From positions 75,539-139,538 of the forward strand of contig JAMWCX010000001.1 in assembly GCA_023818895.1 (NCBI GenBank): 64,000 nt of DNA, in the 5' to 3' direction. Both the position numbers and the translations under genes were made by a program. Source of the stretch: Candidatus Omnitrophota bacterium. GTDB taxonomy: Bacteria > Omnitrophota > Gorgyraeia > 2-01-FULL-45-10. The number at the start of each line of letters is the position of its first letter. The first letter of the stretch is position 1. The notes below the pieces were generated by a model, which did not search any database, was not told the origin of the DNA, and saw only the letters and a program-made list of their open reading frames with translations. Shown here one piece after another: positions 4,967-59,346 of this stretch.

Positions 4967-5043
4967 GCCCCTGTAGCTCAGATGGATAGAGCACAGGTTT
5001 CCTAAACCTGGTGTCGCCCGTTCGACTCGGGCCAGGGGCGCCA
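4967..5043 (+). tRNA. tRNA-Arg (anticodon CCT), with an encoded 3' CCA
   Basis: Manual cloverleaf fold: acceptor stem GCCCCTG/CAGGGGC, D arm GCTC-AGATGGATA-GAGC, anticodon stem CAGGT/ACCTG around the loop TTCCTAA (anticodon CCT), T arm GCCCG-TTCGACT-CGGGC, discriminator G, then CCA. Confidence 0.8.
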
Positions 5044-45400: not shown

Positions 45401-45676
45401 ACCGCCGAGAGTAGGTAGTATCGCGTCCGGTCTCTCTTTTTTTATTATCTCGGTGACAGCTTCAACGGTGAGCGGCTCTATGTAGGTTGCGTCCGCCATA
45501 TTAGGATCTGTCATAATGGTTGCGGGGTTTGAGTTTACCAGTATCGTGAAGTAGCCCTCTTCCTTCAGCGCCTTGCAGGCTTGCGAGCCGGAATAATCGA
45601 ATTCGCATGCCTGGCCTATTATTATCGGCCCCGATCCTATCATCAATATCCTGTGTATGTCCTTACGCTTTGGCAT
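42404..45676 (-). CDS. carB: Carbamoyl-phosphate synthase large subunit
   Basis: 1090 aa with duplicated ATP-grasp halves ([24 protein letters not shown]... and [24 protein letters not shown]...) and a C-terminal MGS-like domain. Confidence 0.9.
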
Positions 45677-46817
45677 ATGCCACCTCGCGATATGATTTGG
45701 AATTTTTCTTGATTTTTAGAATGCCACCCCCCTTTTTAGCCATGGAGAGAAATCGCGGAAAGACCTCATTTATCTCTTCAAAGCCAGGGCTTGCGGGGTT
45801 ATATTGAACCGACATGAACTTCAAAGTTTTTGATTCCATCGCTTCGATGGTATCGTCGTTAACGTTGCGCAGAGTTATCGCCACGCTCTTGTTATTTTTG
45901 AGAGAGTTTTCATCAATGACATAAGAATGATTCTGCGCCGTTATTTCGCCCTTGAAAGAAGCGGCCGGCCGCACCGGATAATTTACGCCATGGTGGCCTA
46001 TCTTGAGTTTTCTGAGCTTGCAACCCATGGCCATGCCGATTACCTGATGGCCTGTCGCGATGCCTAACATCGGTATTTTGCCAAGAACCGTTTTAACGGT
46101 ATCCGCTACTTTCGGAAGGCTTATGTCGTTTTCGGGACCGTTCGAGATTATCAGACCATCAACTCGCATGCTCAGGATATCGGAGGCGCTTGTATCATAA
46201 GGAAGCAATGTTACATTACAATTCAAAATTTTGAGTTGATGTATAAAACTATTGAGCATTCCCAGATCCAGGACCGCTATGGTTGGCCCAGATGATCCTG
46301 TCTTAAGAGGCGTCGGATGCTTTACGGATATGGCTTTGATAAAGTCTTTGCCGTTTGTCTTCTGTTGGCTCAATTTCTTCAGCAAGGATTCTTTCTTGAG
46401 GTCCGTTGTGGATATGGCGCCGAACATCTCGCCTTTATCGCGTATAGTAATAGCGAGCGTCCTGGTGTCGACCTCGCTTATAGCCGTAACTTTTTCTTCT
46501 TTGATAAAATCGCATAACGAGCCCTCTGCTTGCCAGTTTGAATATATTCTGGACTCTTCTTTTATGACAAGGCCCGCTATCCAACATCTCCTCGATTCAT
46601 TGAATTTTTTGGCAATACCATAATTGCCTATCAACGGATAAGTAAGGACTAGGATCTTACCCGCATTGCTTGGGTCAGTCATAATCTCCTGGTATCTCAC
46701 CACAGCGGTATTAAGCACAACCTCGCCGAACCTCTCTCCTGGCTCGCCGATAGATATACCTTCGAACGAGCTACCGTCTTCAAGCACTATCATTGATTTC
46801 ATATTTTCTCCCGTCAA
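45663..46817 (-). CDS. carA: Carbamoyl-phosphate synthase small subunit. An ATG at 46801 ([10 protein letters not shown]) is the more likely start.
   Basis: A CPSase small-chain N-domain followed by a class I GATase. It overlaps the carB start by 14 nt. Confidence 0.85.
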
Positions 46818-46828
46818 TCTTATTTATA

Positions 46829-46868
46829 AAACAAAAGGCCAGCAGGGACGACAATCCCTCTGGCCTTA
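46829..46868 (-). terminator. Rho-independent terminator for the giant gene (minus-strand read: GGCCAGAGGGA-TTGTCG-TCCCTGCTGGCC followed by TTTTGTTTT)
   Basis: A GC-rich hairpin with a U-tract on the minus strand, about 220 nt downstream of the giant ORF stop and about 15 nt upstream of carA. Confidence 0.55.
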
Positions 46869-47085
46869 AAAAAGGAGCCATTGTGGGTATTACTTGCTAT
46901 GTACCAGCTCCCTCCTGCCGACGACATCTATATTTATATCCGACATAATATTAATTTTGTAACCTCCACATTCCTCTCGGATGTGCGATTTCTTCATTGC
47001 GCAAATTCTAACACAGCTGGCTGCCGGTGTCAATAGTAATATCCCGCCAAATTTCTGCGTCTTGGGGAAATCGCGGCATATCTTA

Positions 47086-50000
47086 TTATGCGAATTCCTG
47101 TACCTTGTAGAGCCGCCTGAGGTTCTCGTAGACGGGGATCCTCTCTGCCTTGGGCAGGAAGATGAAGACGTTGCGGCAGTCCTTTAGGGCCTCGGCCCTC
47201 ACAGCTGGGTTGTCGAGAGCGTCTTCTGCAGCCAAAACGTCTTTTAGGCCTAGCTTCAATGCCATCGCGAGCATTTCCGTGAGGTACATATAGCAGCTCT
47301 CGTCCAGCCCGCTTGCGTCGACGCCGGCGAGAAATGCCTTTTCGTCATTGCGCAAGTATTCAAATTCCCGCGAGATGACGGTGTCGCGAGATGCGAGAAC
47401 GACTACCCGCGCCGCAGGGGTAATCTCTCTTGCCTTTGCTATTTCTGATAGTAGATCTTTGTCTTCGCGGTCAATGAATGTTATGCCGCGGTCATTACAG
47501 AAATTGCGGATCATGATTATGTGCTGATTAAGGTCGGCATATTGTGGTCCGTTTCCACGCATATAGCCTTTTATCCAGCTTGTGCCGAGAGCTAGTATTA
47601 CAGGCTCTTTCTGGTTCGCGGCGCGGATGAGCTTGACGATATCGGAGAACTTTACCGCTTCTATACGCGCAAGTTCCGCTCTCGGCTGTTCGTCTGGGCT
47701 GTAGCCTGACGTATCACTGGGTTGTAAAAAAGATCCTGTCTTGTTCTCATCTTCTGTCAGGATAGTTTTCGAATCACTAATTTTTGCGTTTACTTCAGAG
47801 GCCGCTTGCAGGTGCCAGAGCTTGGTTTTTCTTCCGTCGATTTCGGCATTAACCTTAACCCATATACCCCGGAACGGGTAAAGATAATTCTGCTTAAGAT
47901 TGCTGTTGGGAATTGGTGTTCGGAGCTTACCCGTATATCTATCTTCCAACTCCTCAACGGTAGATGCGTAAAAATATTCGAAACCCGCTTTTTGGGCCAA
48001 TCTGACAATATGCATTATAGCCCCTCTATTCCACTCGTAAAATCTTTGGCGTATTTCAAGAGGTTGGATGTTGCGGAATCCCAGGCTTGGCTGGACGTCA
48101 TATATGAGTAGGGCGGGTTTTTTGTTGTGTTCAGTTATCCGCAGGCGTATTACGCCGAAAAGGCCGCTGGAAGGCACATAGTCGTCAGATGCCATCATGT
48201 CGAGCGTGGCAAGTTCGGGATAGGCCTTTTTGGTATCTTCCGTAGGTTCGATCGCGAATTCCTGCGGGATTTCATCGTATTCGATATACGCGCCAACCTT
48301 TTGCCCTTTGACAGTCCATGTGAAGTAAGGATCCTTTTCCAGTAGTTCCAGTAGTCTGGCGAACTCCGCTGATTTCCGCAGAGAATTACCCGTCTTAGGC
48401 AATAGTAAATGTTGTGTGCCGGCATCGTAGTGGGGCGGCGCGAAAGAGCGAAATAAATTCTCAAGAGACTCATCATCGATGGATGTCAGTTTCTTGTTGA
48501 CAAGGCCGAAGAGCACCTGGGGCATTGTAACAATCTTTGAAAAATGCCTCTCCAAGGCATATAGCGCTCCGCCGAGACATCCTGAGTCCGGTTCGGGAGA
48601 TTTTAATATTTCACCGTTCGCAAGATAGCGCACCTCTTCTCCGCCGAAAGGCGCCAGCGACGTAACGCCGAGTTTTTTCATAGTGGCTATGACAGGTTGC
48701 CAGCGCCTCTGGTCATATATACTGTCTGGCAGCGCTGCCTCCGTTGCCGGAATACCCCACCGCGGAACACTTGGTATATCGACGATTATAGCGCTCGTCG
48801 ATATATTCTTTAAAACATTGTAATTGCCGCCCAGTATGAATACCACGCCTTTTTCGGCCGATATGGTTTTTCTTAAGTTTGACAGGTATATTTCCGCCTC
48901 TTTCTGATTTGCCATAACGATATCGTTTTTTTCACTGGCAGTAAAAATCTGCCCCGGATGCACCAAAAATGAAACCCGTCCACCTTGCTGCTTAATGGCC
49001 TTGCGTATAGCATCGGCGTGTTTGTCGATGTCCGCCCATTGGATAATGCGAGCCTCGGCCATCTGATACTTACTTACGATCTGATCGGCGCGCGCAAGAT
49101 AGCCGGTTGACCGTAGGTAATCCAGGCCGCGACTATGGTCCGACTCGGGTATCCTGTCGGTCCATTCATAGTCTTCCTCTTCACCATCATAGGGAACAAG
49201 ATCGATCTCTCCCCATTTGACTGTGTGGACCAGATAATGGAATGGGATATTTTCGTTTTTTCTGTACATACCAACAAGATATGCCTCATATCCAAGCTTA
49301 TTTAATATATATGTGAGCATGGCTGAGTTGGCTAGACATGATTTCAAATCCATCGACTTGACTGCGTTTTTGATCTCGTTTATGATGTCATTGCTGTTGT
49401 CTGTGTTAAGTCCATCTCTGGAACCTGAAGACGTATTTGATATTTCAGATACATATGTGGTCAGAGATAGGGTGGATATATTATCATCCCTATCCCTTGC
49501 TCCATCTTTTATAGCGCTGCTTATCTTCCCGCGGATTCTCACCTCATTGGAATCTTTGAGGATGGGCTCTAATTCGGAGATATCCTTTATGGCTATCCAA
49601 TTTTGGTGTTTATCATCGCCGGCTTTTTCATAGCTTATTTCTACGGATTCGAATATGCCGGCCCTGGCGCATCTAAGGAAAAATGCGGCATGTGTCTCAT
49701 CAGGTATGCCATAATATTCGATAAATCTATTTGGGCCGGCCTGCGATGCAAGCCATCTTACTACCTCGACACCCAATCCCCGCCGCGTATCTTTCTTGTC
49801 AAATATGCGCAGGTTCTTAAATAGCGTTGTCTCGCCATTCACGTAAAACGCGTATAATGTGCCAACAAGCTTTTCGTTCTCTTCGAGAAAATACCACGAT
49901 CTGTCAAAAGCTCGCAGCCTCAACCTCTTCTCCTCGGATATCTCTACATCTTCTTCTGGAAGCGTTGTCAGGGGAGCGCGATCAGTCTCTTCTGTCCATA

Positions 50001-53000
50001 TGCGGAAACATCTTTTCAATGCCTTTATTATTTCTCTAGCCCCTTCCCTCTCTCCTAGGTACTGTGTTAGGCGTGGAATGCCCGGTGTATTCATGGAGAG
50101 CCATTCGAGCTGCATTACTATTTCAGCTATAATTTGGTTATTCATTTGGTAAAGCGGGTCATCTTCGTGCTGGAGAGAGTCGAATATCCGGTTGGCTATC
50201 ACTTTGATAAGGCCGGGGTTTTGTTCACACGCCCTAACAAGGCCGTTTGTTATAAGCGCGTGATTGACGCAGCAAGGCATATAATGAGTATCATGAGCTA
50301 GGTTGACGATGACTTCAAGCGCGGTGCATATAGCTTCTTTTTGGCTTTCAGTGTTTAGTGAGGCGAGATACGCAGCCAATTCGCTATAACTGCGCTCGGC
50401 CATTTGTTTAATGTCGTTACGGGAAAGCGCGTCCCGCGTGCCTTCGGTATGGTCCATGCCTCCCAAAAGCGGGTGCTCATCGTCGCGCTTAAGTTTCTCT
50501 TCGTAAGAAAGCCAGGTAGTGGCAGAGGTTATTTCCTTGATTTTTTGCCCTTCCTGCCAGTGTTCGATTATCCCGTCCCGTCGCATAGTGGCGAATATGG
50601 GATTGGGTGCGCCGTGGATGTTCGCCGTCCTCCCTTTTTCGTACAATATTACGACATCCGCCTCTTTGCCGGAGGTTTGCTCTCTTACGCCGATCCTTCC
50701 CTCATCAAGATATGACACCAGATCTTGCGGTAGATCACAGGCCGTTATCTTGCCGTTCGAAACCTTTATCCTCCCAATATGTTTGCCATCCTGTGTAAAT
50801 GGATCAAAATCGGCCTTCATCACAGCATATTCGACAGAGTCCGAATTTTCCACCTCCGGCTTCTTATCGCCGGTTTGTTTTATGAGCTTTCTTGCGATAT
50901 GGACAAGTGCCGGATTAACGATGCCTGATATTCCGGAGTGGGACGCACCGTTCCTCCAGGCCGATTTGATGAGCCAGTTCAATACCGTCTCGCCTATTCC
51001 CTTGCCCCTGTCATTTACCCGGATCGTTGTTATGACATTCGTGCCCTTGTAATAATTGACCAGCCCAGCCTTCCTGCCGTCGGCTACAATCTCATATAAC
51101 TTGATAGGGCCTCCTCGATGAGATGGTATTTTGATTTTTATGTCCATAGCGCCTGTCTTTATATTCCGCAGTTTGATGACATTCCACAGGATACCGTAAT
51201 GATACTCTTCCCATATTGTTCCAAAAGCATCTGTTACGGTTCTTATTCGGCCATTTTTATCCTTTTCAATATACTCAAATGGCGCATGACCGTTATTTTG
51301 CCTCGCCACCCATTCAGGTGCTGCCATGTCATCTGGTATGCCTGGACCATCTCCTTCGCCTGACGGCGGATAATCATATGCCTGTATTTTTTTATCGGCT
51401 TTTAAGCCATCAAAATAAGCCAGTCTAGAGGCGATGGCTTTCTCTATTTTCTCTTTGTCCTCGGTCAGCTTGTATTCGAGGATCATTTGGAGTTCCTTAT
51501 CCATATCCATGTCACGAGGGGCTGTCTTTCTTATCTCATCGCGAAGATCCGCAAGCGTCTGGGCATCTTCGGGCCTTGCCAGGCCAATGTATTCTATAAG
51601 TAAATAGGTGTCTTTTTCGTGTATCGTCTCATCGAAGATCCTGACCGGTGTAAGATAGTTTTCTGTTAATACCGCAATTCGGCTTTTATAGGCATCAGAA
51701 GGAACTGTCGATATTTTCGACAGGCGTATCCATATTTTAGCAAGGGCTTCCATCGTGGCGAGCACATCCTCGCTTTTTTCTAATTTACCGATGTTAGATG
51801 TTATGACCTGCTCCATCTTGACAAGTTGTATCTCGGACGCCTTATCAATGTTTCGTATAAAGTTTGTAATCGAAAGCATGATATGTTGCTGTATTTCGGG
51901 TGAGAAGTTTTTGGCGCCATGGCCATCGTCAGCGGGCACGTCCCCTACAGAGAGGCTGTTGTGGTCCATGCCGCCAAGATACCAGTGCTCCTCATCCCGC
52001 TTTAGCATCTCATCACGGGTCAGATTTAAAAGACCGGTCTCTTCGGTCTTCCTGGCCAATATTATGTCAAGCTGCTGAGTCAGGTCAAACCTGCCTATAT
52101 ACTCTTTTGTCCTGTGTTCTATGCCGTAAAAGGCTCGAGTTCTCCTGATAGATGAGGTCACAAAGTCCGATTTTTCATCCGCTCTCATCTTCTTCCAGTT
52201 TTCCGTGGCCTCTTTGCTGTAATAGTCGGGATTAAAGGCTATATACAAAATCCCGCCTCTTTTCAGTGTCTTGGCCGCTGCTGAAATGAGCGCCTCCGGG
52301 TCTTTAACATAAGCCATGCCGGAGGTGATTATCACGGCGTCAAAATGGTTTTCCCACTCGGCGGGAAACTCCGGATTTGCGTTTAGGTCCTGCACGATGC
52401 GTTGGGTAAGTTTCGCGTTGACATTAAGCTCGTCCCTGTTGAGCCCTATTCCGATGATCTCCGACGCGTTTACGGATTGCGGCACATATGTAAAAGCGCC
52501 GCTCATGAGATCAAGGACCCTTGCCCCTCGTGGCAGGTAGTCTTTGAGATAGTCTTCTATGTATGTGGTGGCCGCATCTTCCAGATAGGGTATCGCGCTT
52601 TGCGTGTCAATTAAACTGAAAGATGATTTAACATAATGGAGGATAAGGCTGGTCCTCGTGCCTATTGCCGGCACATTTTCCATATGGAAATTTTCGGCCC
52701 CCAGACAGTGTTCTATAGTCTTGAGGCCGGCGCCCCCTCCCCATAGTCCCGCGTGAAATGCCTTCGTTCTAGATTCTGTGTTATCGTTTCTTGAGGCGGT
52801 ATCGTAGATGTCTACGGTGGTATTTTTTGCCAAAGAATCTATTTTTATGTCGAGGAAGATCGGCTTGCTGAAATCGGCTCTGTTGCCGTGTGAAAACGCG
52901 TTTTTGATGGCCTCCGCGATTGGTGTCATGCTTTTGCCATCGGTGAACGCGTCATCGAGTTTTCCGGAGAGCTTCATGATGGCATCATAAAGATCATCAT

Positions 53001-56000
53001 AAGCGGATTCTTTTTCGGCGAGATAAGCCAGATTCAAAGCCACTGCGTTACCGTTTTTAATGGCCTCGATAATTTTATCCACATTTCCTATGTTTATGTC
53101 AATGACGTTCTTGCCCGTAACACTTTTTACGGAAGCGGCGGTAAAACTGCCAGATATAGATGATGACGGCTCGGCATCTCTTATTCCTGACCAGCCAGTG
53201 GGCTTTGCTTCCTGGGGCCTTTCGAGATCGCGGGCTATGGCGGGATCGGTGGTCTGTTGGGCCGCTGAATCCTGCTTTGTTGCTGAAGGCCTGAGCTCAA
53301 GGTTGCCGTTTTTCCTTACGATGAGGAGCTTGTCCCGACCGGCGGCGCCTATAGCCGCAAGCATTCTTGTCGGTATCATCAAGCGATTGCCCTTCTGGAG
53401 GTTTGCTATAAATTCGCTGTTCGATCCTATGACCGTAAGCATTTCGTTATTTTTGGTATCTGTAATAGACTTGCCGAGCAATGGTTTTATTTTCTGTAAG
53501 AATTGACCGGCGGGATAGACAATGATGCATCTATCGTAACTTTTGCAGAAAAGATAAAAAGGTGCCTTGAATTGTGAGGCGAGGCGGGCGGGTATGGCAA
53601 CTCTGTTATTACTGTCGATAGTTACTTCTGCCAGAATTTCATCCTGGTTATCGTTAAGTTGCGCCTTATCGTTCTCAATGGAGTTTTTCTTGTCTTTATG
53701 TGATAAGTCGGTGTTTTGGTTTTTGGAAGAAGCATTATTTATTATCACCCCGAGTATCGAAACTAAAACCAGCCATTTTGTCGATACTGGCATCGTTCTT
53801 GATGCTGCGCTGGTGTGTCGGTAGGGTTTCTCTGGTTGTCTGAGCTCAGGCGGATCTTCTGCTTGGACAGGATAGAGTAGTTGGCCGTTATGGATCATGA
53901 GTCTGCTGCCATGGGAATTGTTTGCTTTTATGAGCATAACGTTTTCTATCATTCCAAGGTTTTGCAGAGCGCGGTAAATATTTTTTACGGTTCTTAGCCA
54001 ATGGGGACTGAAGATGCCGCTGTTATCCTCTAAGGCATAGCTCCCTTCAAGAATATATATCCTTAATCCCATTTTCTCGGTAAAGTTTGCAGCGATAGAA
54101 TCTTGTATTTCCTGTATAGTGCAAGCTGGCGTGAAATGGGCAAGATAGTGTTTTCCGTTTTGAGGATCGTCTATTGCTAAACCAGCGCATGTGCCGACGT
54201 TGTCGATGTATAAAGGGATATCGCGGGAGTTGATTTTGTAGCTCATCATCGGAACATATACCGCATTCGTGGTGACGTGGCATATCTCCATTGCTTCTGC
54301 TCTTCTCGAGAGGTCTTCCGATAAATTCCTGACCTCTATCGGCGTTATGGCGTAGTAGCGACAGTCCTTCATGGTATCGAGCAGGCCGAATGGTAGTAGT
54401 ATCGCTATGGCGAGTATGATGCCGCTCGCAAAGGCGGCTGGCAACTTCAGCCATTTCAGATGTTGTGCGCGCTTATCACGCTCTCCCCTCTTTTTCTCAT
54501 ACGGCGTGGTTTCATTTTCTCCCTGCACAAAGAAATGGATGAGTTCGTTTTTTGTTCTGTGATGCCTAAATCCCGATATCGGCTCCTTGAATAGCCTGAA
54601 GCCCTCATGCCCCTGAAGTATGAATATGCCGCCGGTTTTTATCTCTTTGAGTTTATCCACGAGTGCATATTCGACATCGTCCGGAGCACCGCCCATAAAG
54701 TAGTAGACAGCATCATACCTACCCAGATCTTCTTTGAGAAAATCCCCCTGCTTTATAGTGACGCTGCCCGGTTTGATGAGCCCTTCTTTTATAAGTTCAT
54801 CAAGCATCTCTTTGGCATATGAGACCTTAGACGGGTCCCACTCGACCATCGTGACCCTGAACCCGAAGACCGACGCCATGAAAAACCCGAAGCTTCCTAG
54901 GCCGCCCCCGAGATCTACTATATGTGCGCCTTCTTTGAGGCCCCATTCCCGCACCGTCGGTCCAACTATGTATTCACTCGAATCCATGAATATGCCGAAC
55001 GCGTTTTTCGGATCCCTGGAGACATACGGATGTTTCTGTCTGTAGTGTTCCTTGAAATCTATGAATGCCCTCATCCTCAAATATTGGGCGCGGCTCAGGT
55101 TCTCCTTTATGCTGTTTATATACTTTTCTCTGAATAGTTCTTCTCTTCTTATTCGGAGCTTTTCGTAGGGTATCGTGCCATCGAGTTCGGCTGAGATATT
55201 AAGGGCGTGATGAGCCCATGACGTGAGGGCAAAGAAAGCCACACTTTGAGGCATGCTCATGAATATCGGTGTGGCCATAACAACAGCATTTAGTAAAGCG
55301 ATAACCGTTATTTTATACCAGGGCGGCGCCTGCGGCATATGCTTGGCCCTGAAATAATGCGAGGCAACGAAAAGCGACCATGTTATGGCCGATGCCCAAA
55401 GACTTCCGGTGATTGGTGTCAAAATAATGGCTAATTCCCAGAATAACGCCTGCTCTATGAAAACCTGGGACCAGCTCTTTATCTTTTGTGGCATTGGGAA
55501 GGATTCGTCTATCTTGTCGATGAGCCAGGCCAATAGCGGTATCTGTCCCCATGCCTCTCCCTCACTAAAATAGTCGGTTTTTGCCTCATCTACATGTGAT
55601 ATAATATTGTCAATATCTTCGTGCAATCCTTTCAGATATGAGCATTTACCGAAATGCTTAACGAACCATTCTATTGTTTGAACAGGTTCGTAAATGGCAA
55701 GATGATTATCGAGAGTGATACCGTCTCGAAGGATTTTCCTGATAGCATCTGATGCTGCCTTAGACTGAGCCAGTTCTTCTAAAAGTTTTGAACGTGTCTC
55801 GCCCTTAAAGAGCTCTAAGATAACAGTTTCTGCCTGCCGGAATGTTGTTGGATTGAATCGTTGGACGAATGCTGTGAGCATTTGTTCCAGCCGAGCGCGG
55901 TTGAACTCATTTTTAGGTGGTGCCTTTTCATAGGCGTATATCTCTGATAAGAGAAACTCAAAATTGGCATTCATAACATCAGTTTGAAACCTGCTTGCAT

Positions 56001-57621
56001 CATCACGTAGTGCCTGGAGCATTCTTAGTAGTTCTACTATTATATTGTTTAGGGCAATATAACGCGAAGCGACAGCTGTCCCGGGAATACAATATTTTTT
56101 GAAATCCGATGCCAGTAGGGAATTTAGCCTTCTTAGAGTTGATTCCCGCGATAAGAGTACTTTCCAGAAGCTTTCCAAGTCCACCGCCCATCCGATTTTT
56201 TTGACCTCGTTAAGATATTTTCTTATATCGGCGTATGTATCCTCAAATATGCGTTCAAGGATTTTAATGGTAGGAATGGCGTGATGCGTCTCAGGGTCAT
56301 TTTCATCATTGAGGTAATCATCGACGTCATCATTGGCGTCATCATCGGGTGGCTGGGTAATATGTGGCGTCCCCGGCCCCCAGAGGAGGTTCTCGCGATC
56401 GTCTTTTTCGTATTCCTTCTCTTTTACATTTGCTGATGCGTTGATGTCGGACCTTTGAGCAGGAGGCTTTGTCTTAGAATGACCCAAAAACTTGTCATCG
56501 ACTTTAGATATGTTTTTGTCATCCTTATCGGCTAAGTTGTGGGTTTTACTCATCGCGGTGTCTTCGTTTGTTTGTATTAAGGGCATGACCTTTACATAGA
56601 CATTTGTGCCGTCACCGAGCGGTATCGTCATATCGGCATCTGTGTTTTTGTCCTCAAGATAATATTTGTAATAATAAGCCTTTACTCCGTTTCTATATAG
56701 TGGCAGATAATACGCCTTCTCTTCTTTGTTATAAAATAGTTCGTTTATCGCCAACCCTGCAAGGAGAGGATCGTTCTTGTTAGCGCGTTTTATATCTACT
56801 AAGGATATGTGGCGTTTTATTTCCGGGATAAGAGTATATTGAGATATACTATATTGTAGATATTTTCCTATCAGGATACTTATATCCCGAAAGACAGCTT
56901 TCTCGCGGAATTCTTTATCGTCAGCGTACGCTATGGCAATAAATTCATTCTCGGCGAATATCTCAGAGGAGTCGTTTTTTTTAGGGATGCGAAGTTGCGT
57001 CTTTGTACCGTCAGCAAAAGGTCGCCAGCTTATCGAGCCGCCTAATCTGCGCATTGTCAGAGATGCGTCAATAACTCCGGTACCATTGCCTCCAAAATGT
57101 TTCTTGAGGTGCTGGGACGACCTTTCCCTTTTTCTGTAAGCTGGAACACCTTCCTTTAGAAGCTCTATTGGCTTGCCATTATCGATTACATTTATTATCA
57201 GTTCGTCAGCGTCATAGTACGCCTCAATTGTGACTACACCTACAAATGATACAATCCCCTTATTGCGCATCTCTTCGAATTTATCAATTATAGAATCATA
57301 CGAGTTTTTCATTATTTCCATGAGCACATCTTCCATTAGGGGGTTTGTGGTAAGGCGCTGATATAGCGGGTTTTTCTCTACTTTTGTCTTAAAGTCCGTT
57401 TTTGAACGCAAAAATGACGATTCGATTTCCGGGTTGAAATTTATCCGAATCTCCGTCCTGGCACCATTTGCAACAGATAGTATAGGGCTAAATCTGCTGG
57501 GAGGGGCAAGGTGGTATGTTGCCTCATTGGTCGCAAAACTTAACTCGTTTAATATCAGGGCAAGAATCAGGAATACAGATATTATTTTTAAAGGCAGGCT
57601 TAGTTTGTAATAACTTAACAT
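47086..57621 (-). CDS. Giant multidomain exported/membrane protein (3,511 aa). Recognised modules in order: signal peptide, GHKL-like, transmembrane cluster, SAM methyltransferase, CheD-like, MraZ/AbrB-like, second SAM methyltransferase, a KRDEEH-LGGMDH repeat plus GNAT-like fold (twice), transglutaminase-like core, and a C-terminal region.
   Basis: A single uninterrupted 10,536-nt ORF with no internal stops and consistent codon usage. Motifs read directly from the translation include: INVIDNGKPI...HFGGNGTGV (HATPase_c-like); HIVDLGGGLGSFGFF...DAVYYF and RVLDLMSGAFTYV...GGILYIAF (class I methyltransferases); VGTCAGLAIDDPQNGKHYLAHF (CheD-like); NRVAIPARL.../GNRLMIPTRM... (MraZ double hairpin); GLVNYYKGTNVITTIRVNDRGKGIGETVLNWL and LVGTLYAFYVNGETTL...RRGLGVEVVRWL (GNAT-like); and C-x24-H-x17-D (KSCLANSAML...FHYLVHT...D). 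Confidence 0.7.
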   Translation of the reverse strand: MLSYYKLSLPLKIISVFLILALILNELSFATNEATYHLAPPSRFSPILSVANGARTEIRINFNPEIESSFLRSKTDFKTKVEKNPLYQRLTTNPLMEDVLMEIMKNSYDSIIDKFEEMRNKGIVSFVGVVTIEAYYDADELIINVIDNGKPIELLKEGVPAYRKRERSSQHLKKHFGGNGTGVIDASLTMRRLGGSISWRPFADGTKTQLRIPKKNDSSEIFAENEFIAIAYADDKEFREKAVFRDISILIGKYLQYSISQYTLIPEIKRHISLVDIKRANKNDPLLAGLAINELFYNKEEKAYYLPLYRNGVKAYYYKYYLEDKNTDADMTIPLGDGTNVYVKVMPLIQTNEDTAMSKTHNLADKDDKNISKVDDKFLGHSKTKPPAQRSDINASANVKEKEYEKDDRENLLWGPGTPHITQPPDDDANDDVDDYLNDENDPETHHAIPTIKILERIFEDTYADIRKYLNEVKKIGWAVDLESFWKVLLSRESTLRRLNSLLASDFKKYCIPGTAVASRYIALNNIIVELLRMLQALRDDASRFQTDVMNANFEFLLSEIYAYEKAPPKNEFNRARLEQMLTAFVQRFNPTTFRQAETVILELFKGETRSKLLEELAQSKAASDAIRKILRDGITLDNHLAIYEPVQTIEWFVKHFGKCSYLKGLHEDIDNIISHVDEAKTDYFSEGEAWGQIPLLAWLIDKIDESFPMPQKIKSWSQVFIEQALFWELAIILTPITGSLWASAITWSLFVASHYFRAKHMPQAPPWYKITVIALLNAVVMATPIFMSMPQSVAFFALTSWAHHALNISAELDGTIPYEKLRIRREELFREKYINSIKENLSRAQYLRMRAFIDFKEHYRQKHPYVSRDPKNAFGIFMDSSEYIVGPTVREWGLKEGAHIVDLGGGLGSFGFFMASVFGFRVTMVEWDPSKVSYAKEMLDELIKEGLIKPGSVTIKQGDFLKEDLGRYDAVYYFMGGAPDDVEYALVDKLKEIKTGGIFILQGHEGFRLFKEPISGFRHHRTKNELIHFFVQGENETTPYEKKRGERDKRAQHLKWLKLPAAFASGIILAIAILLPFGLLDTMKDCRYYAITPIEVRNLSEDLSRRAEAMEICHVTTNAVYVPMMSYKINSRDIPLYIDNVGTCAGLAIDDPQNGKHYLAHFTPACTIQEIQDSIAANFTEKMGLRIYILEGSYALEDNSGIFSPHWLRTVKNIYRALQNLGMIENVMLIKANNSHGSRLMIHNGQLLYPVQAEDPPELRQPEKPYRHTSAASRTMPVSTKWLVLVSILGVIINNASSKNQNTDLSHKDKKNSIENDKAQLNDNQDEILAEVTIDSNNRVAIPARLASQFKAPFYLFCKSYDRCIIVYPAGQFLQKIKPLLGKSITDTKNNEMLTVIGSNSEFIANLQKGNRLMIPTRMLAAIGAAGRDKLLIVRKNGNLELRPSATKQDSAAQQTTDPAIARDLERPQEAKPTGWSGIRDAEPSSSISGSFTAASVKSVTGKNVIDINIGNVDKIIEAIKNGNAVALNLAYLAEKESAYDDLYDAIMKLSGKLDDAFTDGKSMTPIAEAIKNAFSHGNRADFSKPIFLDIKIDSLAKNTTVDIYDTASRNDNTESRTKAFHAGLWGGGAGLKTIEHCLGAENFHMENVPAIGTRTSLILHYVKSSFSLIDTQSAIPYLEDAATTYIEDYLKDYLPRGARVLDLMSGAFTYVPQSVNASEIIGIGLNRDELNVNAKLTQRIVQDLNANPEFPAEWENHFDAVIITSGMAYVKDPEALISAAAKTLKRGGILYIAFNPDYYSKEATENWKKMRADEKSDFVTSSIRRTRAFYGIEHRTKEYIGRFDLTQQLDIILARKTEETGLLNLTRDEMLKRDEEHWYLGGMDHNSLSVGDVPADDGHGAKNFSPEIQQHIMLSITNFIRNIDKASEIQLVKMEQVITSNIGKLEKSEDVLATMEALAKIWIRLSKISTVPSDAYKSRIAVLTENYLTPVRIFDETIHEKDTYLLIEYIGLARPEDAQTLADLRDEIRKTAPRDMDMDKELQMILEYKLTEDKEKIEKAIASRLAYFDGLKADKKIQAYDYPPSGEGDGPGIPDDMAAPEWVARQNNGHAPFEYIEKDKNGRIRTVTDAFGTIWEEYHYGILWNVIKLRNIKTGAMDIKIKIPSHRGGPIKLYEIVADGRKAGLVNYYKGTNVITTIRVNDRGKGIGETVLNWLIKSAWRNGASHSGISGIVNPALVHIARKLIKQTGDKKPEVENSDSVEYAVMKADFDPFTQDGKHIGRIKVSNGKITACDLPQDLVSYLDEGRIGVREQTSGKEADVVILYEKGRTANIHGAPNPIFATMRRDGIIEHWQEGQKIKEITSATTWLSYEEKLKRDDEHPLLGGMDHTEGTRDALSRNDIKQMAERSYSELAAYLASLNTESQKEAICTALEVIVNLAHDTHYMPCCVNHALITNGLVRACEQNPGLIKVIANRIFDSLQHEDDPLYQMNNQIIAEIVMQLEWLSMNTPGIPRLTQYLGEREGAREIIKALKRCFRIWTEETDRAPLTTLPEEDVEISEEKRLRLRAFDRSWYFLEENEKLVGTLYAFYVNGETTLFKNLRIFDKKDTRRGLGVEVVRWLASQAGPNRFIEYYGIPDETHAAFFLRCARAGIFESVEISYEKAGDDKHQNWIAIKDISELEPILKDSNEVRIRGKISSAIKDGARDRDDNISTLSLTTYVSEISNTSSGSRDGLNTDNSNDIINEIKNAVKSMDLKSCLANSAMLTYILNKLGYEAYLVGMYRKNENIPFHYLVHTVKWGEIDLVPYDGEEEDYEWTDRIPESDHSRGLDYLRSTGYLARADQIVSKYQMAEARIIQWADIDKHADAIRKAIKQQGGRVSFLVHPGQIFTASEKNDIVMANQKEAEIYLSNLRKTISAEKGVVFILGGNYNVLKNISTSAIIVDIPSVPRWGIPATEAALPDSIYDQRRWQPVIATMKKLGVTSLAPFGGEEVRYLANGEILKSPEPDSGCLGGALYALERHFSKIVTMPQVLFGLVNKKLTSIDDESLENLFRSFAPPHYDAGTQHLLLPKTGNSLRKSAEFARLLELLEKDPYFTWTVKGQKVGAYIEYDEIPQEFAIEPTEDTKKAYPELATLDMMASDDYVPSSGLFGVIRLRITEHNKKPALLIYDVQPSLGFRNIQPLEIRQRFYEWNRGAIMHIVRLAQKAGFEYFYASTVEELEDRYTGKLRTPIPNSNLKQNYLYPFRGIWVKVNAEIDGRKTKLWHLQAASEVNAKISDSKTILTEDENKTGSFLQPSDTSGYSPDEQPRAELARIEAVKFSDIVKLIRAANQKEPVILALGTSWIKGYMRGNGPQYADLNQHIIMIRNFCNDRGITFIDREDKDLLSEIAKAREITPAARVVVLASRDTVISREFEYLRNDEKAFLAGVDASGLDESCYMYLTEMLAMALKLGLKDVLAAEDALDNPAVRAEALKDCRNVFIFLPKAERIPVYENLRRLYKVQEFA

Positions 57622-57632
57622 AGATTGAATAA

Positions 57633-57660
57633 ATTATATCACACAATCGTGTTAAGTCAA
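57633..57660 (-). promoter_or_regulatory. Near-consensus sigma-70 promoter for the giant gene (minus-strand read: TTGACT, a 16-nt spacer, then TATAAT)
   Basis: On the minus strand, revcomp(57655-57660) is TTGACT and revcomp(57633-57638) is TATAAT. The -10 hexamer lies only 11 nt upstream of the ATG at 57621, implying a very short or leaderless 5' UTR. Confidence 0.45.
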
Positions 57661-57813
57661 TAGAAAGATAGCTAACTTTTGTCAATCTAACACTTATCTA
57701 TAAAAACTATGCGTTTATAACATATATATTTGTATGGGATTGCCTTGATCAGGTATTTTTAGGATTTCGAGTTCACATTGGTTCGACATAAGGTGGCGTA
57801 GTAATGAGGTTGT

Positions 57814-59346
57814 TTATGTGATGAATAGATTGTGTGAAGAGAATTTGCCATCGGTGGTTAGGTTGACTCCCAGCATCTTTAGGCCTACATCATCGCCGGG
57901 CGTTGGTATATGGGTCATGTGCATCTCGCAGTCGCGTAATTCAATAAGCTTCTTCATGGCAAGCTCCGCGGTGTGGTTTGTTGTTGCGCTTATTGAAAGA
58001 GCAATCAGTGCCTCTTCCAGATCAAGGCTTTCAGGTTCGCATTTTAAAACTTCCTCTTTCAGGGAATTTATTTGATTTATTATATGGGGCGATATAAGCA
58101 GTATCTCATCGGGTATATTTGAGAGCGTCTTAACGGCGTTTAGTATGAGGCTTGAAGCGGCATGCAGCATTTTGGAATTTTTCCCTGTAACAATACGTCC
58201 GTCTTTCAGCTCAATAGCGGCGCCGCAGTATATGCCAGCATTGCCTTTTCCCTTTTTTTCAGCCTCTTCAGCCGCTTTTCTGGCGACCTCGACGACTTTC
58301 CTGTCAGTAACTTTTACCCCCATCTCTTCCATCAGCATCGCTACTCTATCTACAACCTCCCTTTTTTCTATGCCGAGGACATATTCTTGATTGTAGCGGA
58401 AGTAGCGGCGAATGAATTCCTGTTTGGCGGCTTCCCGAACGATCTCATCATCTACTATGCCGAAACCGGCGCGATTGACGCCCATGTCAGTCGGCGAATT
58501 ATAGACTGGCAGGTTTGCGGCCTTGCTGTTCAGTATCCGCGTAAGGATTAATTTAAGAATGGGGAAGCTCTCGACGTCGCGATTGTAATTTATGGCCGTC
58601 TCGTTGTACTTGGCCAGATGGAAAGGGTCTACAAGATTGAAGTCGGATATGTCTGCCGTCGCCGCCTCGTAAGCGACATTTACTGGATGCTTGAGTGGCA
58701 AGTTCCATATAGGAAACGTCTCAAACTTCGCATAACCGGCGTTTATGCCTCTTTTGTGCTCATGGTATAGCTGCGAAAGGCACACGGAAAGCTTTCCACT
58801 GTTGGGTCCCGGCGCCGTGACTACCACGATCGGTTTTTTTGTCTCTATGTAGTCGTTCTTGCCAAAACCCATTTCGCTTACGACATGGTCTACATTCGTT
58901 GGGTATCCTTCTATAGGGTAGTGGAGAGAAACCTTAACGCCGCGCCGTTCAAGCTTATTTTTGAATATGACCGCGGAAGGTTGGCCTGCGAAACGGGTGA
59001 TGACGACCGTCGAGATATCGAGTCCCCACTTTCTTAGATCGTCTATTAGCTTGAATGTTGCGGCATCGTAGGTTATGCCGAAGTCGCCGCGAACCCTCCC
59101 CTTTTCGATATCGCCGGCATATATAGCCAGGACTATCTCGATCTTGTCCTTCAGCTGTTGTAAGAGTCTTATCTTGACGTTAGGATCGTAGCCGGGCAGG
59201 ACTCTTGCGGCGTGATAGTCACAACAGAGCTTTCCGCCAAACTCGAGATATAGTTTTGAGTCAAACTTATTAGCGCGGTCTATTATCGCAGCGGTTTGTT
59301 CTTTGAGGTATTTTTCGTTGTCGAAACCTATTCTTGCCCTTGCCAT
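57814..59346 (-). CDS. DUF1846 / UPF0371-family protein
   Basis: 510 aa. The N-terminus (MARARIGFDNEKYLKEQTAAIIDRANKFDSKLYLEFGGKL..DYHAARVLPGYDPN) resembles UPF0371 proteins. This assignment is from memory. Confidence 0.5.
   Translation of the reverse strand: MARARIGFDNEKYLKEQTAAIIDRANKFDSKLYLEFGGKLCCDYHAARVLPGYDPNVKIRLLQQLKDKIEIVLAIYAGDIEKGRVRGDFGITYDAATFKLIDDLRKWGLDISTVVITRFAGQPSAVIFKNKLERRGVKVSLHYPIEGYPTNVDHVVSEMGFGKNDYIETKKPIVVVTAPGPNSGKLSVCLSQLYHEHKRGINAGYAKFETFPIWNLPLKHPVNVAYEAATADISDFNLVDPFHLAKYNETAINYNRDVESFPILKLILTRILNSKAANLPVYNSPTDMGVNRAGFGIVDDEIVREAAKQEFIRRYFRYNQEYVLGIEKREVVDRVAMLMEEMGVKVTDRKVVEVARKAAEEAEKKGKGNAGIYCGAAIELKDGRIVTGKNSKMLHAASSLILNAVKTLSNIPDEILLISPHIINQINSLKEEVLKCEPESLDLEEALIALSISATTNHTAELAMKKLIELRDCEMHMTHIPTPGDDVGLKMLGVNLTTDGKFSSHNLFIT

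What the first reader, a model, noticed from the sequence alone, without database searches (positions are those of the whole stretch)
53270..53620. MraZ/AbrB-type double swapped-hairpin DNA-binding-like module embedded in an exported giant protein
Residues around 1335 to 1450 read ...DSNNRVAIPARLASQFKAPFYLFCKSYDRCIIVYPAGQFLQKI...GSNSEFIANLQKGNRLMIPTRMLAAIGAAGRDKLLIVRKNGNLELRP. The two consecutive '(G)N-R-x-x-IP-x-R(L/M)' half-domains have the spacing and flanking hydrophobics of MraZ, which is itself a tandem AbrB-fold. A transcription-factor fold inside a secreted or membrane protein is unexpected. It may have been repurposed as a protein-protein or antitoxin-like interaction module.
Basis: partly seen in the sequence, partly recalled or inferred. 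Interest (0 to 1): 0.5.

Follow-up and report, generated by a model that had tools for sequence, protein, structure and literature searches.

The report
MraZ-like domain inside Omnitrophota giant protein
A complete but divergent copy of the small bacterial cell-division regulator MraZ sits as one interchangeable block inside a 3,511-residue mosaic protein of an Omnitrophota-type bacterium, an arrangement found in only three proteins among 1.84 billion searched.

Summary
Residues 1328-1445 of the 3,511-aa ORF (window 47086-57621, minus strand; module 53287-53640) form a full MraZ-type tandem swapped-hairpin domain. Pfam MraZ scores above its cutoff on the isolated segment. Sequence search of PDB hits only MraZ chains, and the top 16 Foldseek hits of the AlphaFold model are all MraZ (E 1e-8, TM about 0.7). 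The next-closest relatives in 1.84 billion proteins are ordinary stand-alone MraZ proteins.

It is not an orthologue of MraZ. It scores far below the NCBIfam equivalog cutoff, lacks the C-terminal oligomerisation helices, has lost the second Asp of DXXXR, and is not in a dcw cluster. Both DNA-contacting arginines are invariant and the module is strongly basic, so I favour retained nucleic-acid binding over a pure protein-protein role.

The carrier is a rare giant gene related to Candidatus Omnitrophica/Omnitrophota MAG proteins, at a conserved locus (DUF1846 upstream, carAB/pur genes downstream) with shuffled interior cassettes. The MraZ cassette recurs in 3 of the 7 long members. "Exported" is only partly supported: no hydrophobic segment follows residue 1294, so the module shares a compartment with SAM- and acetyl-CoA-type domains, most simply the cytoplasm. 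Repeated junction peptides suggest polyprotein-like processing, which is untested.

The parts
47086..57621 (-). Giant mosaic ORF, 3,511 aa, that carries the module
   Evidence: Single open frame with no stops. Its homologues are 2,453-5,638-aa proteins, and the named ones come from Candidatus Omnitrophica MAGs. BLAST mapping shows shuffled cassettes between a conserved N-terminus and C-terminus.
53287..53640 (-). MraZ-like module, residues 1328-1445, a complete tandem swapped-hairpin cradle from beta1 to beta8
   Evidence: Pfam MraZ 29.5 bits. PDB MraZ hits span both halves. AF2 model pLDDT 81.3, pTM 0.75. Foldseek top 16 hits are all MraZ, TM 0.68-0.78. TIGR00242 gives E 2e-9 but scores below its cutoff.
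53473..53640 (-). First half-domain (residues 1328-1383), with an intact DXXXR motif D1336-S-N-N-R1340 followed by P1344
   Evidence: This is the only part matched by the Pfam MraZ half-domain model. R and P are invariant and D is nearly invariant in the 28-sequence alignment with stand-alone MraZ. R1340 corresponds to M. genitalium Arg15. N1338 replaces the essential Lys13 (alignment; PMC12957436).
53287..53457 (-). Second half-domain (residues 1389-1445), with a degenerate motif Q1409-K-G-N-R1413 followed by P1417
   Evidence: It aligns to the MraZ second half in PDB searches and in alignment A2, where R1413 (Arg86 equivalent) is invariant. The Asp82 equivalent is Q, S or E in the three modules. 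The Pfam half-domain model does not detect this half.
53740..53796 (-). Hydrophobic segment (residues 1276-1294), the last one before the module and a putative membrane tether
   Evidence: Kyte-Doolittle peak of 1.78, with no further peak of 1.4 or more up to the C-terminus. It belongs to the preceding cassette (giant 1062-1300 matches P0001 778-1016).
53641..53739 (-). K/N/D-rich linker (residues 1295-1327) between the hydrophobic segment and the module
   Evidence: Read directly from the translation. It has no homologue outside this protein in the BLAST map.
53152..53286 (-). S/T/Q/P-rich linker after the module, occupying the place of the MraZ C-terminal helices. It contains KPTGWSGIRDAE (residues 1473-1484, window 53170-53205), a possible degenerate junction peptide
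   Evidence: Alignment A2 shows stand-alone MraZ continuing with a 20-30-residue tail where the three modules diverge into linker. The model shows only a very low-confidence (pLDDT below 50) 4-residue helix after beta8. The comparison with the KPGSSDME junctions of P0001 is by eye only.
57532..57621 (-). Conserved Sec-signal-like N-terminus (residues 1-30, ...LILNELSFA/TNEA)
   Evidence: Hydropathy peak of 2.25. The motif LILND(L/T)SFA is conserved in P0001, P0002, P0003 and P0005. No signal-peptide predictor was available.
57633..57660 (-). Best promoter-like site of the region, TTGACT-16-TATAAT with TG, ending 11 nt before the ATG
   Evidence: 11 of 12 hexamer matches; sequence read. This is a consensus match only.
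52159..52539 (-). SAM-dependent methyltransferase domain 2 (residues 1695-1821), on the same side of the membrane as the module
   Evidence: Pfam Methyltransf_23 at 27.8 bits and Methyltransf_11 at 25.1 bits, both above cutoff.
47089..47676 (-). Conserved C-terminal domain of the giant family (residues 3316-3511)

Best explanation
The segment encodes a genuine, divergent member of the MraZ superfamily. It is one polypeptide carrying two SpoVT/AbrB-type half-domains that fold into the swapped-hairpin 'cradle'. This domain has been captured as a roughly 120-residue cassette in a rare, hypervariable giant gene of Omnitrophota-type bacteria.

Shown:
- The fold and the homology to MraZ.
- Recurrence of the same cassette, with different neighbours, in three giants.
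- Conservation of the two base-contacting arginines and the cradle proline.
- Loss of the C-terminal oligomerisation helices.
- A strongly basic charge.
- Absence of any hydrophobic segment between the module and the C-terminus.

Inferred:
- The module lies on the cytoplasmic side, together with the SAM- and acetyl-CoA-type domains.
- It still binds a polyanion, most likely DNA, through the cradle. It would act as a monomeric unit tethered to the membrane-anchored giant, or as a free protein of about 15 kDa if the giant is cut at its repeated junction peptides.
- It does not form the ring oligomer of stand-alone MraZ.
- Its target sequence probably differs from the dcw-promoter boxes, because Lys13 and Asp82 equivalents are changed.
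For: Fold and homology:
- Pfam MraZ scores above its cutoff on the isolated segment.
- Sequence searches of PDB with the module and with a three-module profile hit only MraZ chains, across both halves.
- The AF2 model has pLDDT 81. Its top 16 Foldseek hits are all MraZ, at E 1e-8 to 2e-5, over 125-132 columns.
- In 1.84e9 representatives, the hits after the three giants are about 50 stand-alone proteins of 133-191 aa. All 25 stand-alone hits placed in alignment A2 are Pfam MraZ (27 of its 28 members match), and JGI names them 'MraZ protein'.

Retained binding surface:
- R1340, P1344 and R1413 are invariant across the 28-sequence alignment.
- They correspond to Arg15, Pro19 and Arg86 of M. genitalium MraZ. 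Arg15 and Arg86 contact bases, and alanine substitution abolishes DNA binding (PMC12957436).
- Thr9, Asp11 and Asn14 equivalents are also kept.
- The module core has net charge +8, +9 and +6 in the three giants (pI about 10), against a median of +2 for canonical cores. It is the second most basic 120-residue region of a protein with net charge -49.
- A non-oligomeric M. genitalium MraZ mutant still binds DNA (PMC12957436), so a monomeric cradle is plausible.

Compartment:
- There are no hydrophobic segments after residue 1294, and methyltransferase and GNAT-like domains lie downstream.

Selection:
- The cassette is kept at 40-48% identity in three giants whose other cassettes and order differ.
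- Other DNA-binding-type cassettes occur in the family: HTH_3 and HTH_31 in P0001, Sigma70_r2 in P0005.
Against: - The Lys13 equivalent is Asn in the window copy. K13A alone abolishes binding in M. genitalium.
- The Asp that positions Arg86 is lost in all three modules.
- Pfam does not recognise the second half.
- The oligomerisation helices are missing, and interface aromatics Phe52 and Phe58 are not conserved. The cooperative multi-box binding that gives MraZ its affinity would therefore be lost.
- No MraZ-box-like array was found in the window.
- The topology rests on hydropathy and cofactor logic only. The published work on Omnitrophota giants reports most domains predicted extracellular, while calling those predictions unreliable.
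- No binding experiment exists.
Confidence: 0.55

Rival explanations
1. The cradle has been repurposed as a protein-protein or antitoxin-like interaction module. It would no longer bind DNA but would dock another cassette of the giant or a partner protein.
For: One of the three residues essential for DNA binding is lost in the window copy (Lys13 becomes Asn), and the Asp82 equivalent is lost in all three. The second half is too divergent for the Pfam model. The ring-forming helices are absent. The module carries its own invariant signature, K-N-G-x-L-E at the beta7-beta8 hairpin, that stand-alone MraZ lacks. AbrB/MazE-fold proteins do act in toxin-antitoxin complexes (general knowledge; PF04014 MazE_antitoxin weakly hits 2 members of A2).
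Against: Both base-contacting arginines and the cradle Pro and Asp are invariant. The module is much more basic than canonical cores. No toxin-like partner cassette travels with it, since its neighbours differ in all three giants. In MazE and AbrB proteins the swapped-hairpin part is itself the DNA-binding part (PMC12957436).
Confidence: 0.22
2. The giant is a polyprotein, and the MraZ-like cassette is released by cleavage at conserved junction peptides. It then acts as a free small regulator, in the producer or, if the products are delivered, in a host or prey cell.
For: In P0001 the cassette is bracketed exactly by two of nine K-P-G-S-S-D-M-E junctions (residues 3268 and 3412, against HSP 3283-3407). 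The codons of the nine copies vary synonymously, so the peptide is what is conserved. One junction is followed by what reads as a complete Sec signal peptide, which could only work at a free N-terminus. Other junction peptides recur across giants with unrelated flanks: WGPGTPHITQP(P/A)D four times in three proteins, and LKRD..LGGMDH twice in the window. The literature on Omnitrophota giants has already proposed cleavage (10.1101/2023.11.21.568195). There is a weak transglutaminase-like Cys-protease hint in one cassette.
Against: In the window protein the module is not bracketed by clear junctions. Upstream is a hydrophobic segment plus linker, and downstream only a degenerate KPTGWSGIRDAE. No protease is identified above threshold. 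There are no proteomic data. Delivery to another cell is pure speculation.
Confidence: 0.15
3. The module is a decaying relic or mere spacer with no specific function, or an artefact in which a separate mraZ gene was fused by an assembly or frameshift error.
For: The second half is degenerate. The family is tiny and evolves fast.
Against: Three independent genomes, plus a second assembly of the window sequence, carry it in frame within ORFs of 10-17 kb without stops. It holds 40-48% identity with 31 invariant positions, including the functional ones, while surrounding cassettes are replaced. No start codon or ribosome-binding site is placed to express it separately. The model folds confidently.
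Confidence: 0.05

Closest known systems
MraZ (Pfam PF02381, NCBIfam TIGR00242; structures 1N0E/F/G from M. pneumoniae and 9QLG, 9QLR, 9R4J, 9SZ7 from M. genitalium)
   Same: The same single-chain tandem swapped-hairpin cradle with the same secondary-structure order from beta1 to beta8. The first DXXXR motif is intact, both base-contacting arginines and the cradle prolines are kept, and the core is about the same length, 118 residues.
   Different: It is embedded at residue 1328 of a 3,511-aa protein instead of being a stand-alone protein of about 150 aa. It is not in a dcw cluster; its gene neighbours are DUF1846 and carA. It lacks the C-terminal helices alpha5-alpha6 and the aromatic interface residues used for ring formation. 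Lys13 is replaced by Asn and Asp82 by Gln. It scores 37.5 bits against the 98.35 equivalog cutoff. Identity to canonical MraZ is 17-24%.
SpoVT/AbrB/MazE swapped-hairpin transcription factors and antitoxins (PF04014; TIGR01439)
   Same: The same half-domain fold and DXXXR-type DNA-binding loop (TIGR01439 E 1.7e-4 on residues 10-26 of the query; 2glw hit).
   Different: Those proteins build the cradle from two chains, whereas here both halves are in one chain, as in MraZ. Fold similarity to them is far weaker (E 0.035 against 1e-8).
Omnitrophota giant proteins ('Archaeovorin-type', bioRxiv 10.1101/2023.11.21.568195; also 10.64898/2026.06.07.730766)
   Same: The named homologues are Candidatus Omnitrophica/Omnitrophota MAG proteins. 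Features shared with the paper's description: a mosaic of methyltransferase and HATPase_c-like domains, hydrophobic segments and a predicted N-terminal signal. Cleavage into smaller products has been proposed for them.
   Different: This protein is 3.5 kaa, against more than 30 kaa. No SecA-like, C39 or S8 domains were detected. Neither paper mentions an MraZ or AbrB domain in its main text. I did not test whether this family is homologous to Archaeovorins.
Membrane-tethered one-component DNA-binding regulators (ToxR/CadC type), as an analogy only, from general knowledge
   Same: A DNA-binding domain held at the cytoplasmic face by an adjacent membrane segment, if the inferred topology is right.
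   Different: A different fold (winged helix against swapped hairpin) and a different architecture. No evidence of sensing or of a regulated promoter exists here.

Membership tests
MraZ family (PF02381 / TIGR00242) | Two SpoVT/AbrB-type half-domains in one chain, forming the swapped-hairpin cradle | tested here: met
   The AF2 model shows beta1-beta4/alpha2 plus alpha3/beta5-beta8. Foldseek top 16 hits are all MraZ, TM 0.68-0.78, over 125-132 of 132 columns. The internal repeat scores 33 against 20.5 +/- 3.7 for shuffles.
MraZ family (PF02381 / TIGR00242) | Pfam PF02381 match above the gathering score, normally one match per half | tested here: inconclusive
   The isolated segment scores 29.5-29.9 bits against a cutoff of 23, but only the first half is matched. 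In the whole giant the score is 20.3 bits, below cutoff.
MraZ family (PF02381 / TIGR00242) | NCBIfam equivalog score (TIGR00242 cutoff 98.35 bits) | tested here: not met
   The three modules score 37.5, 39.8 and 15.2 bits. They are homologues, not equivalogs.
MraZ family (PF02381 / TIGR00242) | DXXXR motif in both halves, with base-contacting Lys13, Arg15 and Arg86 (M. genitalium numbering) | tested here: inconclusive
   The first motif, DSNNR, is intact and both Arg are invariant. Lys13 is Asn in the window but Lys in P0001 and P0004. The second-half Asp is Q, S or E. Residue roles are taken from PMC12957436.
MraZ family (PF02381 / TIGR00242) | C-terminal helices alpha5-alpha6 and aromatic interface residues that build the octamer-to-dodecamer ring | tested here: not met
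   After beta8 the three modules diverge into S/T/P/Q linker, where stand-alone MraZ has a 20-30-residue tail. The model shows only a very low-confidence (pLDDT below 50) 4-residue helix there. Phe52 and Phe58 equivalents are Lys and Gly in the alignment.
MraZ family (PF02381 / TIGR00242) | Stand-alone gene of about 150 aa at the head of the dcw cluster, upstream of rsmH/mraW | tested here: not met
   It is embedded at residues 1328-1445 of a 3,511-aa ORF. Flanking genes are DUF1846 and carA/carB/purF/guaA/purL/purQ. No dcw gene is present in the 64-kb window.
MraZ family (PF02381 / TIGR00242) | Binds direct repeats (GTG[G/T] or TGGGN boxes) in its own promoter and represses dcw transcription | not testable with these tools
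   Only a pattern scan was possible. No GTGK-N6-GTGK-N6-GTGK array is present in the window, which says little because the module's specificity is unknown.
Omnitrophota 'Archaeovorin-type' giant proteins | More than 30,000 aa with glycosyl transferases and hydrolases, peptidases (C39/S8), NUDIX, SecA-like domains and many transmembrane helices | tested here: not met
   This protein has 3,511 aa. Pfam finds two methyltransferases, weak HATPase_c and weak GNAT, and no SecA, C39, S8 or NUDIX. Resemblance in style and phylum only.
This giant family (conserved N-terminus and C-terminal domain, syntenic locus) | LILND(L)SFA N-terminus, C-terminal domain of about 200 aa ending ...YKVQEFA, and a gene placed after DUF1846 and before the carAB/pur genes | tested here: met
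   N- and C-terminal HSPs to P0001-P0004 at 46-56% identity. Synteny is seen in L016, L017 and L018 and in the window.

The most novel reading that the evidence does not exclude
These Omnitrophota giant genes are 'operons in one reading frame'. They would be polyproteins whose cassettes, each a complete small protein, some with their own signal peptides, are released at conserved junction peptides (KPGSSD-ME, LGG-MDH, WGPGTPHITQPPD). The MraZ-like cassette would then be a freed, non-oligomeric DNA-binding regulator. In the boldest version it would be delivered into a host or prey cell to interfere with its division-gene control.
Probability: 0.07. Interest if true: 0.85.

Novelty: new variant of a known kind. 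Interest (0 to 1): 0.5.

Why it matters
MraZ is one of the most conserved bacterial regulators. In the searches run here it appeared otherwise only as a small stand-alone protein of 133-191 aa. A search of 1.84 billion representative proteins found this embedded form in only three giants, two of which come from MAGs labelled Candidatus Omnitrophica/Omnitrophota.

The module is a natural 'minimal cradle': an MraZ core without the ring-forming helices. It could show what the cradle does on its own, and it adds a DNA-binding-type cassette to the inventory of Omnitrophota giant proteins, whose function and location are open questions.

The surrounding observations may matter more than the module itself. 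The gene sits at a fixed chromosomal locus, its interior cassettes are exchanged between genomes, and the cassettes are separated by conserved junction peptides. These give concrete, testable cleavage-site candidates for the long-suspected processing of such giants.

Tried and rejected
1. The search for homologous proteins with the isolated 132-aa module returned nothing, although P0001 and P0004 exist. This was a limit of the word index, not a true absence. The exhaustive representative search replaced it.
2. Two large hits in that search, P0008 (3,172 aa) and P0030 (4,003 aa), look like eukaryotic repeat proteins matched by many weak stretches. I rejected them as false positives after reading the sequences.
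3. The genome and metagenome scans with the module profile found only P0004's contig and canonical-type relatives at 25-28% identity over most of the module (one short 35-residue match at 49%). No new embedded copies appeared.
4. I tested whether the junction peptides are translated ribosome-binding sites plus start codons. In the window the SD-like GAGGAG or GGGAGG lies about 16-21 nt or 1 nt from the ATG of GGMDH, which is the wrong spacing. In P0001 the sequence before the Met is CCCGGATCNTCGGAC, not SD-like, and two copies have Ile or Leu instead of Met. Internal initiation is therefore not supported, though not excluded.
6. A profile search with that domain found only six more fragments from short contigs.
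7. PADLOC gave only a methyltransferase-type hit (mad2), so there is no evidence of a defence system.
8. Segment-wise Pfam scans of unannotated parts gave only sub-threshold HATPase_c (22.3 bits) and HATPase_c_2 hits. A Cys-His-Asp cassette gave a sub-threshold Transglut_core3 hit in P0002 only.
9. The antisense ORFs 53060-53506 and 53567-53824 (+) have no Pfam match and lie inside the long sense ORF, so I treated them as spurious.
10. No Rfam family overlaps the region.
11. The afdb50 fold library was unavailable.
Full report
**1. What is there**

The finding lies inside a single 3,511-codon ORF on the minus strand, window 47086..57621. The quoted peptide is exact:
- DSNNRVAIP begins at residue 1336 (window 53616..53590).
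- KGNRLMIP begins at residue 1410 (53394..53371).
- NGNLELRP ends the unit at residue 1445 (53287).

The pattern NR[ILVM]x[ILVM]P occurs only at these two places in the protein. Only 1 of 20,000 residue shuffles gave two such sites 60-90 residues apart. The two halves align to each other better than 992 of 1,000 shuffles. The antisense ORFs over the region have no family match, and no RNA family overlaps it.

**2. It is an MraZ-type domain**

- Scanned alone, the segment passes the Pfam MraZ gathering score (29.5 bits against 23; E 7.5e-7). Only the first half is matched, and in the context of the whole giant the score drops to 20.3 bits.
- phmmer against all PDB chains hits only MraZ below E 1e-3. 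The hits are M. genitalium 9QLR, 9QLG and 9SX6 and M. pneumoniae 1N0E. The alignment runs from query residue 10 to 100 against MraZ residues 8-96, so it covers both halves and both NR..IP motifs.
- A profile of the three related modules gives the same result.
- NCBIfam's MraZ equivalog model matches at E 2e-9, but at 37.5 bits, far below its cutoff of 98.35.
- An AlphaFold2 model built from the three-sequence alignment is confident (pLDDT 81.3, pTM 0.75). It has the MraZ order of elements: beta1-beta2-alpha1-beta3-beta4-alpha2 / alpha3-beta5-beta6-alpha4-beta7-beta8.
- Foldseek against PDB returns MraZ chains as the top 16 hits (E 1.2e-8 to 2.2e-5, TM 0.68-0.78, 125-132 of 132 columns). The next hit, the AbrB-like PhS018 (2glw), has E 0.035.

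**3. How far it lies from ordinary MraZ**

An exhaustive HMMER search of 1.84 billion representative proteins found three close relatives:
- P0007, an identical 1,559-aa fragment of the window protein from assembly GCA_023818765.1.
- P0004.
- P0001.

After these came about 50 stand-alone proteins of 133-191 aa, at E 4.5e-7 to 1e-3. Two large extra hits look like eukaryotic repeat proteins and are false positives. All 25 stand-alone hits I aligned are Pfam MraZ (27 of the 28 members of alignment A2 match), and JGI names them 'MraZ protein'.

In the 28-sequence alignment the invariant columns are R1340, P1344 and R1413. D1336 and E1442 are nearly invariant.

The 2026 cryo-EM study of M. genitalium MraZ on its promoter shows the following (PMC12957436):
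- Lys13, Arg15 and Arg86 read the bases, and each is essential for binding.
- Asp11 and Asp82 position the arginines.
- The C-terminal helices alpha5-alpha6, together with Phe36, Phe52 and Phe58, build the ring.

Mapping through the alignment gives:

| M. genitalium residue | Window module | P0001 / P0004 |
|---|---|---|
| Thr9, Asp11, Asn14, Arg15, Pro19, Arg86 | kept | not mapped individually; D, N, R, P, R invariant in all three |
| Lys13 | Asn | Lys in both |
| Asp82 | Gln | Ser / Glu |
| Phe52 | Lys | not mapped |
| Phe58 | Gly | not mapped |

After beta8 all three modules run into S/T/P/Q-rich linker instead of the helical tail. The module is therefore a homologue with an intact core but without the oligomerisation apparatus, and with a partly degenerate second motif.

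**4. The carrier protein**

The whole-protein search found only six relatives, of 2,453-5,638 aa. The two that carry names (P0004 and P0006) are from Candidatus Omnitrophica MAGs. The genome scan placed P0004 on a Candidatus Omnitrophota contig.

BLAST mapping shows a mosaic. About 130 N-terminal residues and about 200 C-terminal residues are shared by most members. The interior consists of cassettes that appear in different orders and combinations.

The MraZ-like cassette appears in three places, each time with different neighbours:
- Window residues 1328-1453.
- P0001 residues 3283-3407, at 48% identity.
- P0004 residues 1110-1229, at 40% identity.

The gene sits at a conserved chromosomal position. 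A DUF1846 gene lies immediately upstream in the window, in P0002's contig and in P0003's contig. carA/carB and then purF-guaA-purL-purQ lie downstream in the window. P0001's contig has carB and purF-guaA-purL-purQ downstream, and P0002's has carA/carB after one intervening gene. The rest of the window is ordinary housekeeping DNA without any dcw gene.

A profile of the C-terminal domain retrieved only six further fragments, so the family is rare. The two papers on Omnitrophota giant proteins describe mosaics rich in methyltransferases and HATPase_c domains and propose proteolytic processing. Neither mentions MraZ or AbrB in its main text.

**5. Where the module sits**

The N-terminus reads as a Sec-type signal (h-region, then LSFA/T), and it is conserved across the family. 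Hydrophobic segments occur at residues 720-812 (a bundle), 1063-1081 and 1276-1294. None occurs from 1295 to the end.

The module therefore shares its compartment with these domains:
- The second SAM methyltransferase, residues 1695-1821.
- The weak (sub-threshold) GNAT match at residues 2555-2629; I read the unannotated cassette at about 2090-2369 as GNAT-like by eye.
- The C-terminal domain.

A self-consistent model places these regions as follows:
- Residues 31-719: outside.
- Methyltransferase 1: inside.
- Residues 1082-1275: outside.
- Everything after residue 1294: inside.

This model is inference from hydropathy, the positive-inside rule and cofactor logic, not a prediction from a dedicated tool. 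The GHKL-like domain at residues 50-244 would then be outside, which is awkward. 'Exported' therefore holds at most for parts of the protein and is unlikely for the module.

**6. What it most likely does**

Four points argue that the cradle is still used as a polyanion-binding surface:
- The two base-contacting arginines and the cradle geometry are conserved under selection in three otherwise reshuffled giants.
- The core has a charge of +6 to +9 (pI about 10), against a median of +2 for canonical cores. It is the second most basic 120-residue region of a protein with net charge -49.
- A non-oligomeric MraZ mutant still binds DNA, though more weakly.
- Other DNA-binding-type cassettes occur in the family: HTH_3 and HTH_31 in P0001, Sigma70_r2 in P0005.

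Against this, the window copy has lost the Lys13 equivalent, all copies have lost the Asp82 equivalent, and without ring formation the cooperative recognition of box arrays is gone. No GTGK box array is present in the window.

I put retained nucleic-acid binding, tethered or released, at about 0.55, and a pure protein-protein role at about 0.2.

**7. Junction peptides and possible processing (a side finding)**

P0001 carries nine copies of K-P-G-S-S-D-M-E between unrelated cassettes. Two of them bracket the MraZ cassette exactly, at residues 3268 and 3412. Their codons differ synonymously, and two copies have Ile or Leu instead of Met. One copy is followed by what reads as a complete Sec signal peptide...KPGESNM-AVTKPISAQRSRTGSWLSSLILAVSLVLTPGLATLFVAANAYA/QEQ.

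Other junction peptides are:
- WGPGTPHITQP(P/A)D, which recurs four times in three giants with unrelated flanks.
- LKRD(E/D)EH..LGGMDH, twice in the window protein.
- SGEGDGPG..DDMA, once in the window protein and also present in P0002.
- A degenerate KPTGWSGIRDAE, 28 residues after the module in the window protein.

SD-like sequences are not correctly spaced before the Met codons. Peptide-level conservation, for example protease sites, therefore fits better than internal initiation. No protease cassette was established; there was only a sub-threshold transglutaminase-like hit. This remains a lead, not a result.

**8. Verdict**

The fold interpretation is supported and sharpened: this is specifically MraZ, complete in its core and truncated in its oligomerisation tail. 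It is a homologue but not a member in the functional sense, because four defining features are not met: the equivalog score, the dcw context, the stand-alone architecture and the ring helices.

The 'exported' and 'repurposed' parts of the interpretation are not supported by what could be tested. I classify the module as a new variant of a known kind, of moderate interest. The more interesting open question is the polyprotein-like organisation of the carrier.

Noticed in passing
L016 (P0001) residues 1235, 2208, 2445, 2672, 3268, 3412, 3637, 4323, 4841; window 51961-52005 and 50449-50493 (LKRD..LGGMDH); window 56344-56382 (WGPGTPHITQPPD); window 51322-51363 (SGEGDGPGIPDDMA): Short conserved peptides recur at cassette boundaries of the giants. 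KPGSSDME occurs 9 times in P0001 with synonymous codon variation. WGPGTPHITQP(P/A)D occurs 4 times in three proteins with unrelated flanks. LKRD(E/D)EH..LGGMDH occurs twice in the window protein. They look like processing sites of a polyprotein. SD-like sequences are not properly spaced before the Met codons.
   Followed up: partly
window 45663-59346; L016, L017, L018: The giant gene is a positional orthologue across at least four genomes. A DUF1846 gene lies directly upstream, and carA/carB-purF-guaA-purL-purQ lie downstream. Only the N-terminal ~130 and C-terminal ~200 residues are conserved, and the interior cassettes are replaced or reordered. It is a hypervariable gene at a fixed housekeeping locus.
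   Followed up: partly
L016 (P0001) residues 2672-2725: Directly after one junction peptide comes what reads as a complete Sec signal peptide, with a basic n-region, a hydrophobic core and AYA/Q. A domain of about 550 residues follows, in which I saw no cofactor-type motif. This suggests the cassette is a whole secreted-protein precursor that needs a free N-terminus.
   Followed up: no
window 57633-57660 (minus strand): A near-consensus sigma-70 promoter, TTGACT-16-TATAAT with an extended -10 TG, ends 11 nt before the giant's ATG. There is no SD-like sequence in between, so the mRNA may be leaderless or have a very short leader.
   Followed up: partly
[not shown]
   Followed up: yes
window 56890-57474 (residues 50-244): A GHKL/HATPase_c-like domain (sub-threshold, 22.3 bits; 37% identical to a cassette at residues 3341-3529 of P0005) lies directly after the signal-peptide-like N-terminus. 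This is topologically odd for an ATP-dependent domain.
   Followed up: partly
window about 49177-49353 (residues about 2757-2815); P0002 about 3060-3110; P0004 about 3080-3130: A cassette has a Cys...His...Asp spacing reminiscent of papain/transglutaminase-like cysteine peptidases. Only the P0002 copy gives a weak Transglut_core3 hit (E 0.005, below cutoff). It is a possible processing protease.
   Followed up: partly
window 53797-54378 (residues 1082-1275), flanked by hydrophobic segments at 1063-1081 and 1276-1294: A conserved cassette of about 195 residues (52% identical to P0001 778-1016) is bracketed by two hydrophobic segments and has no family match. It probably faces the opposite side of the membrane from the MraZ-like module.
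   Followed up: no
window 4967-5043 (+): tRNA-Arg (anticodon CCT) is the only RNA gene detected in the window. The rest of the window holds ordinary housekeeping genes (PPDK, a sigma-70 factor, EF-P, MnmG, PitA-type phosphate transporter and others), with no dcw or mraZ gene.
   Followed up: yes
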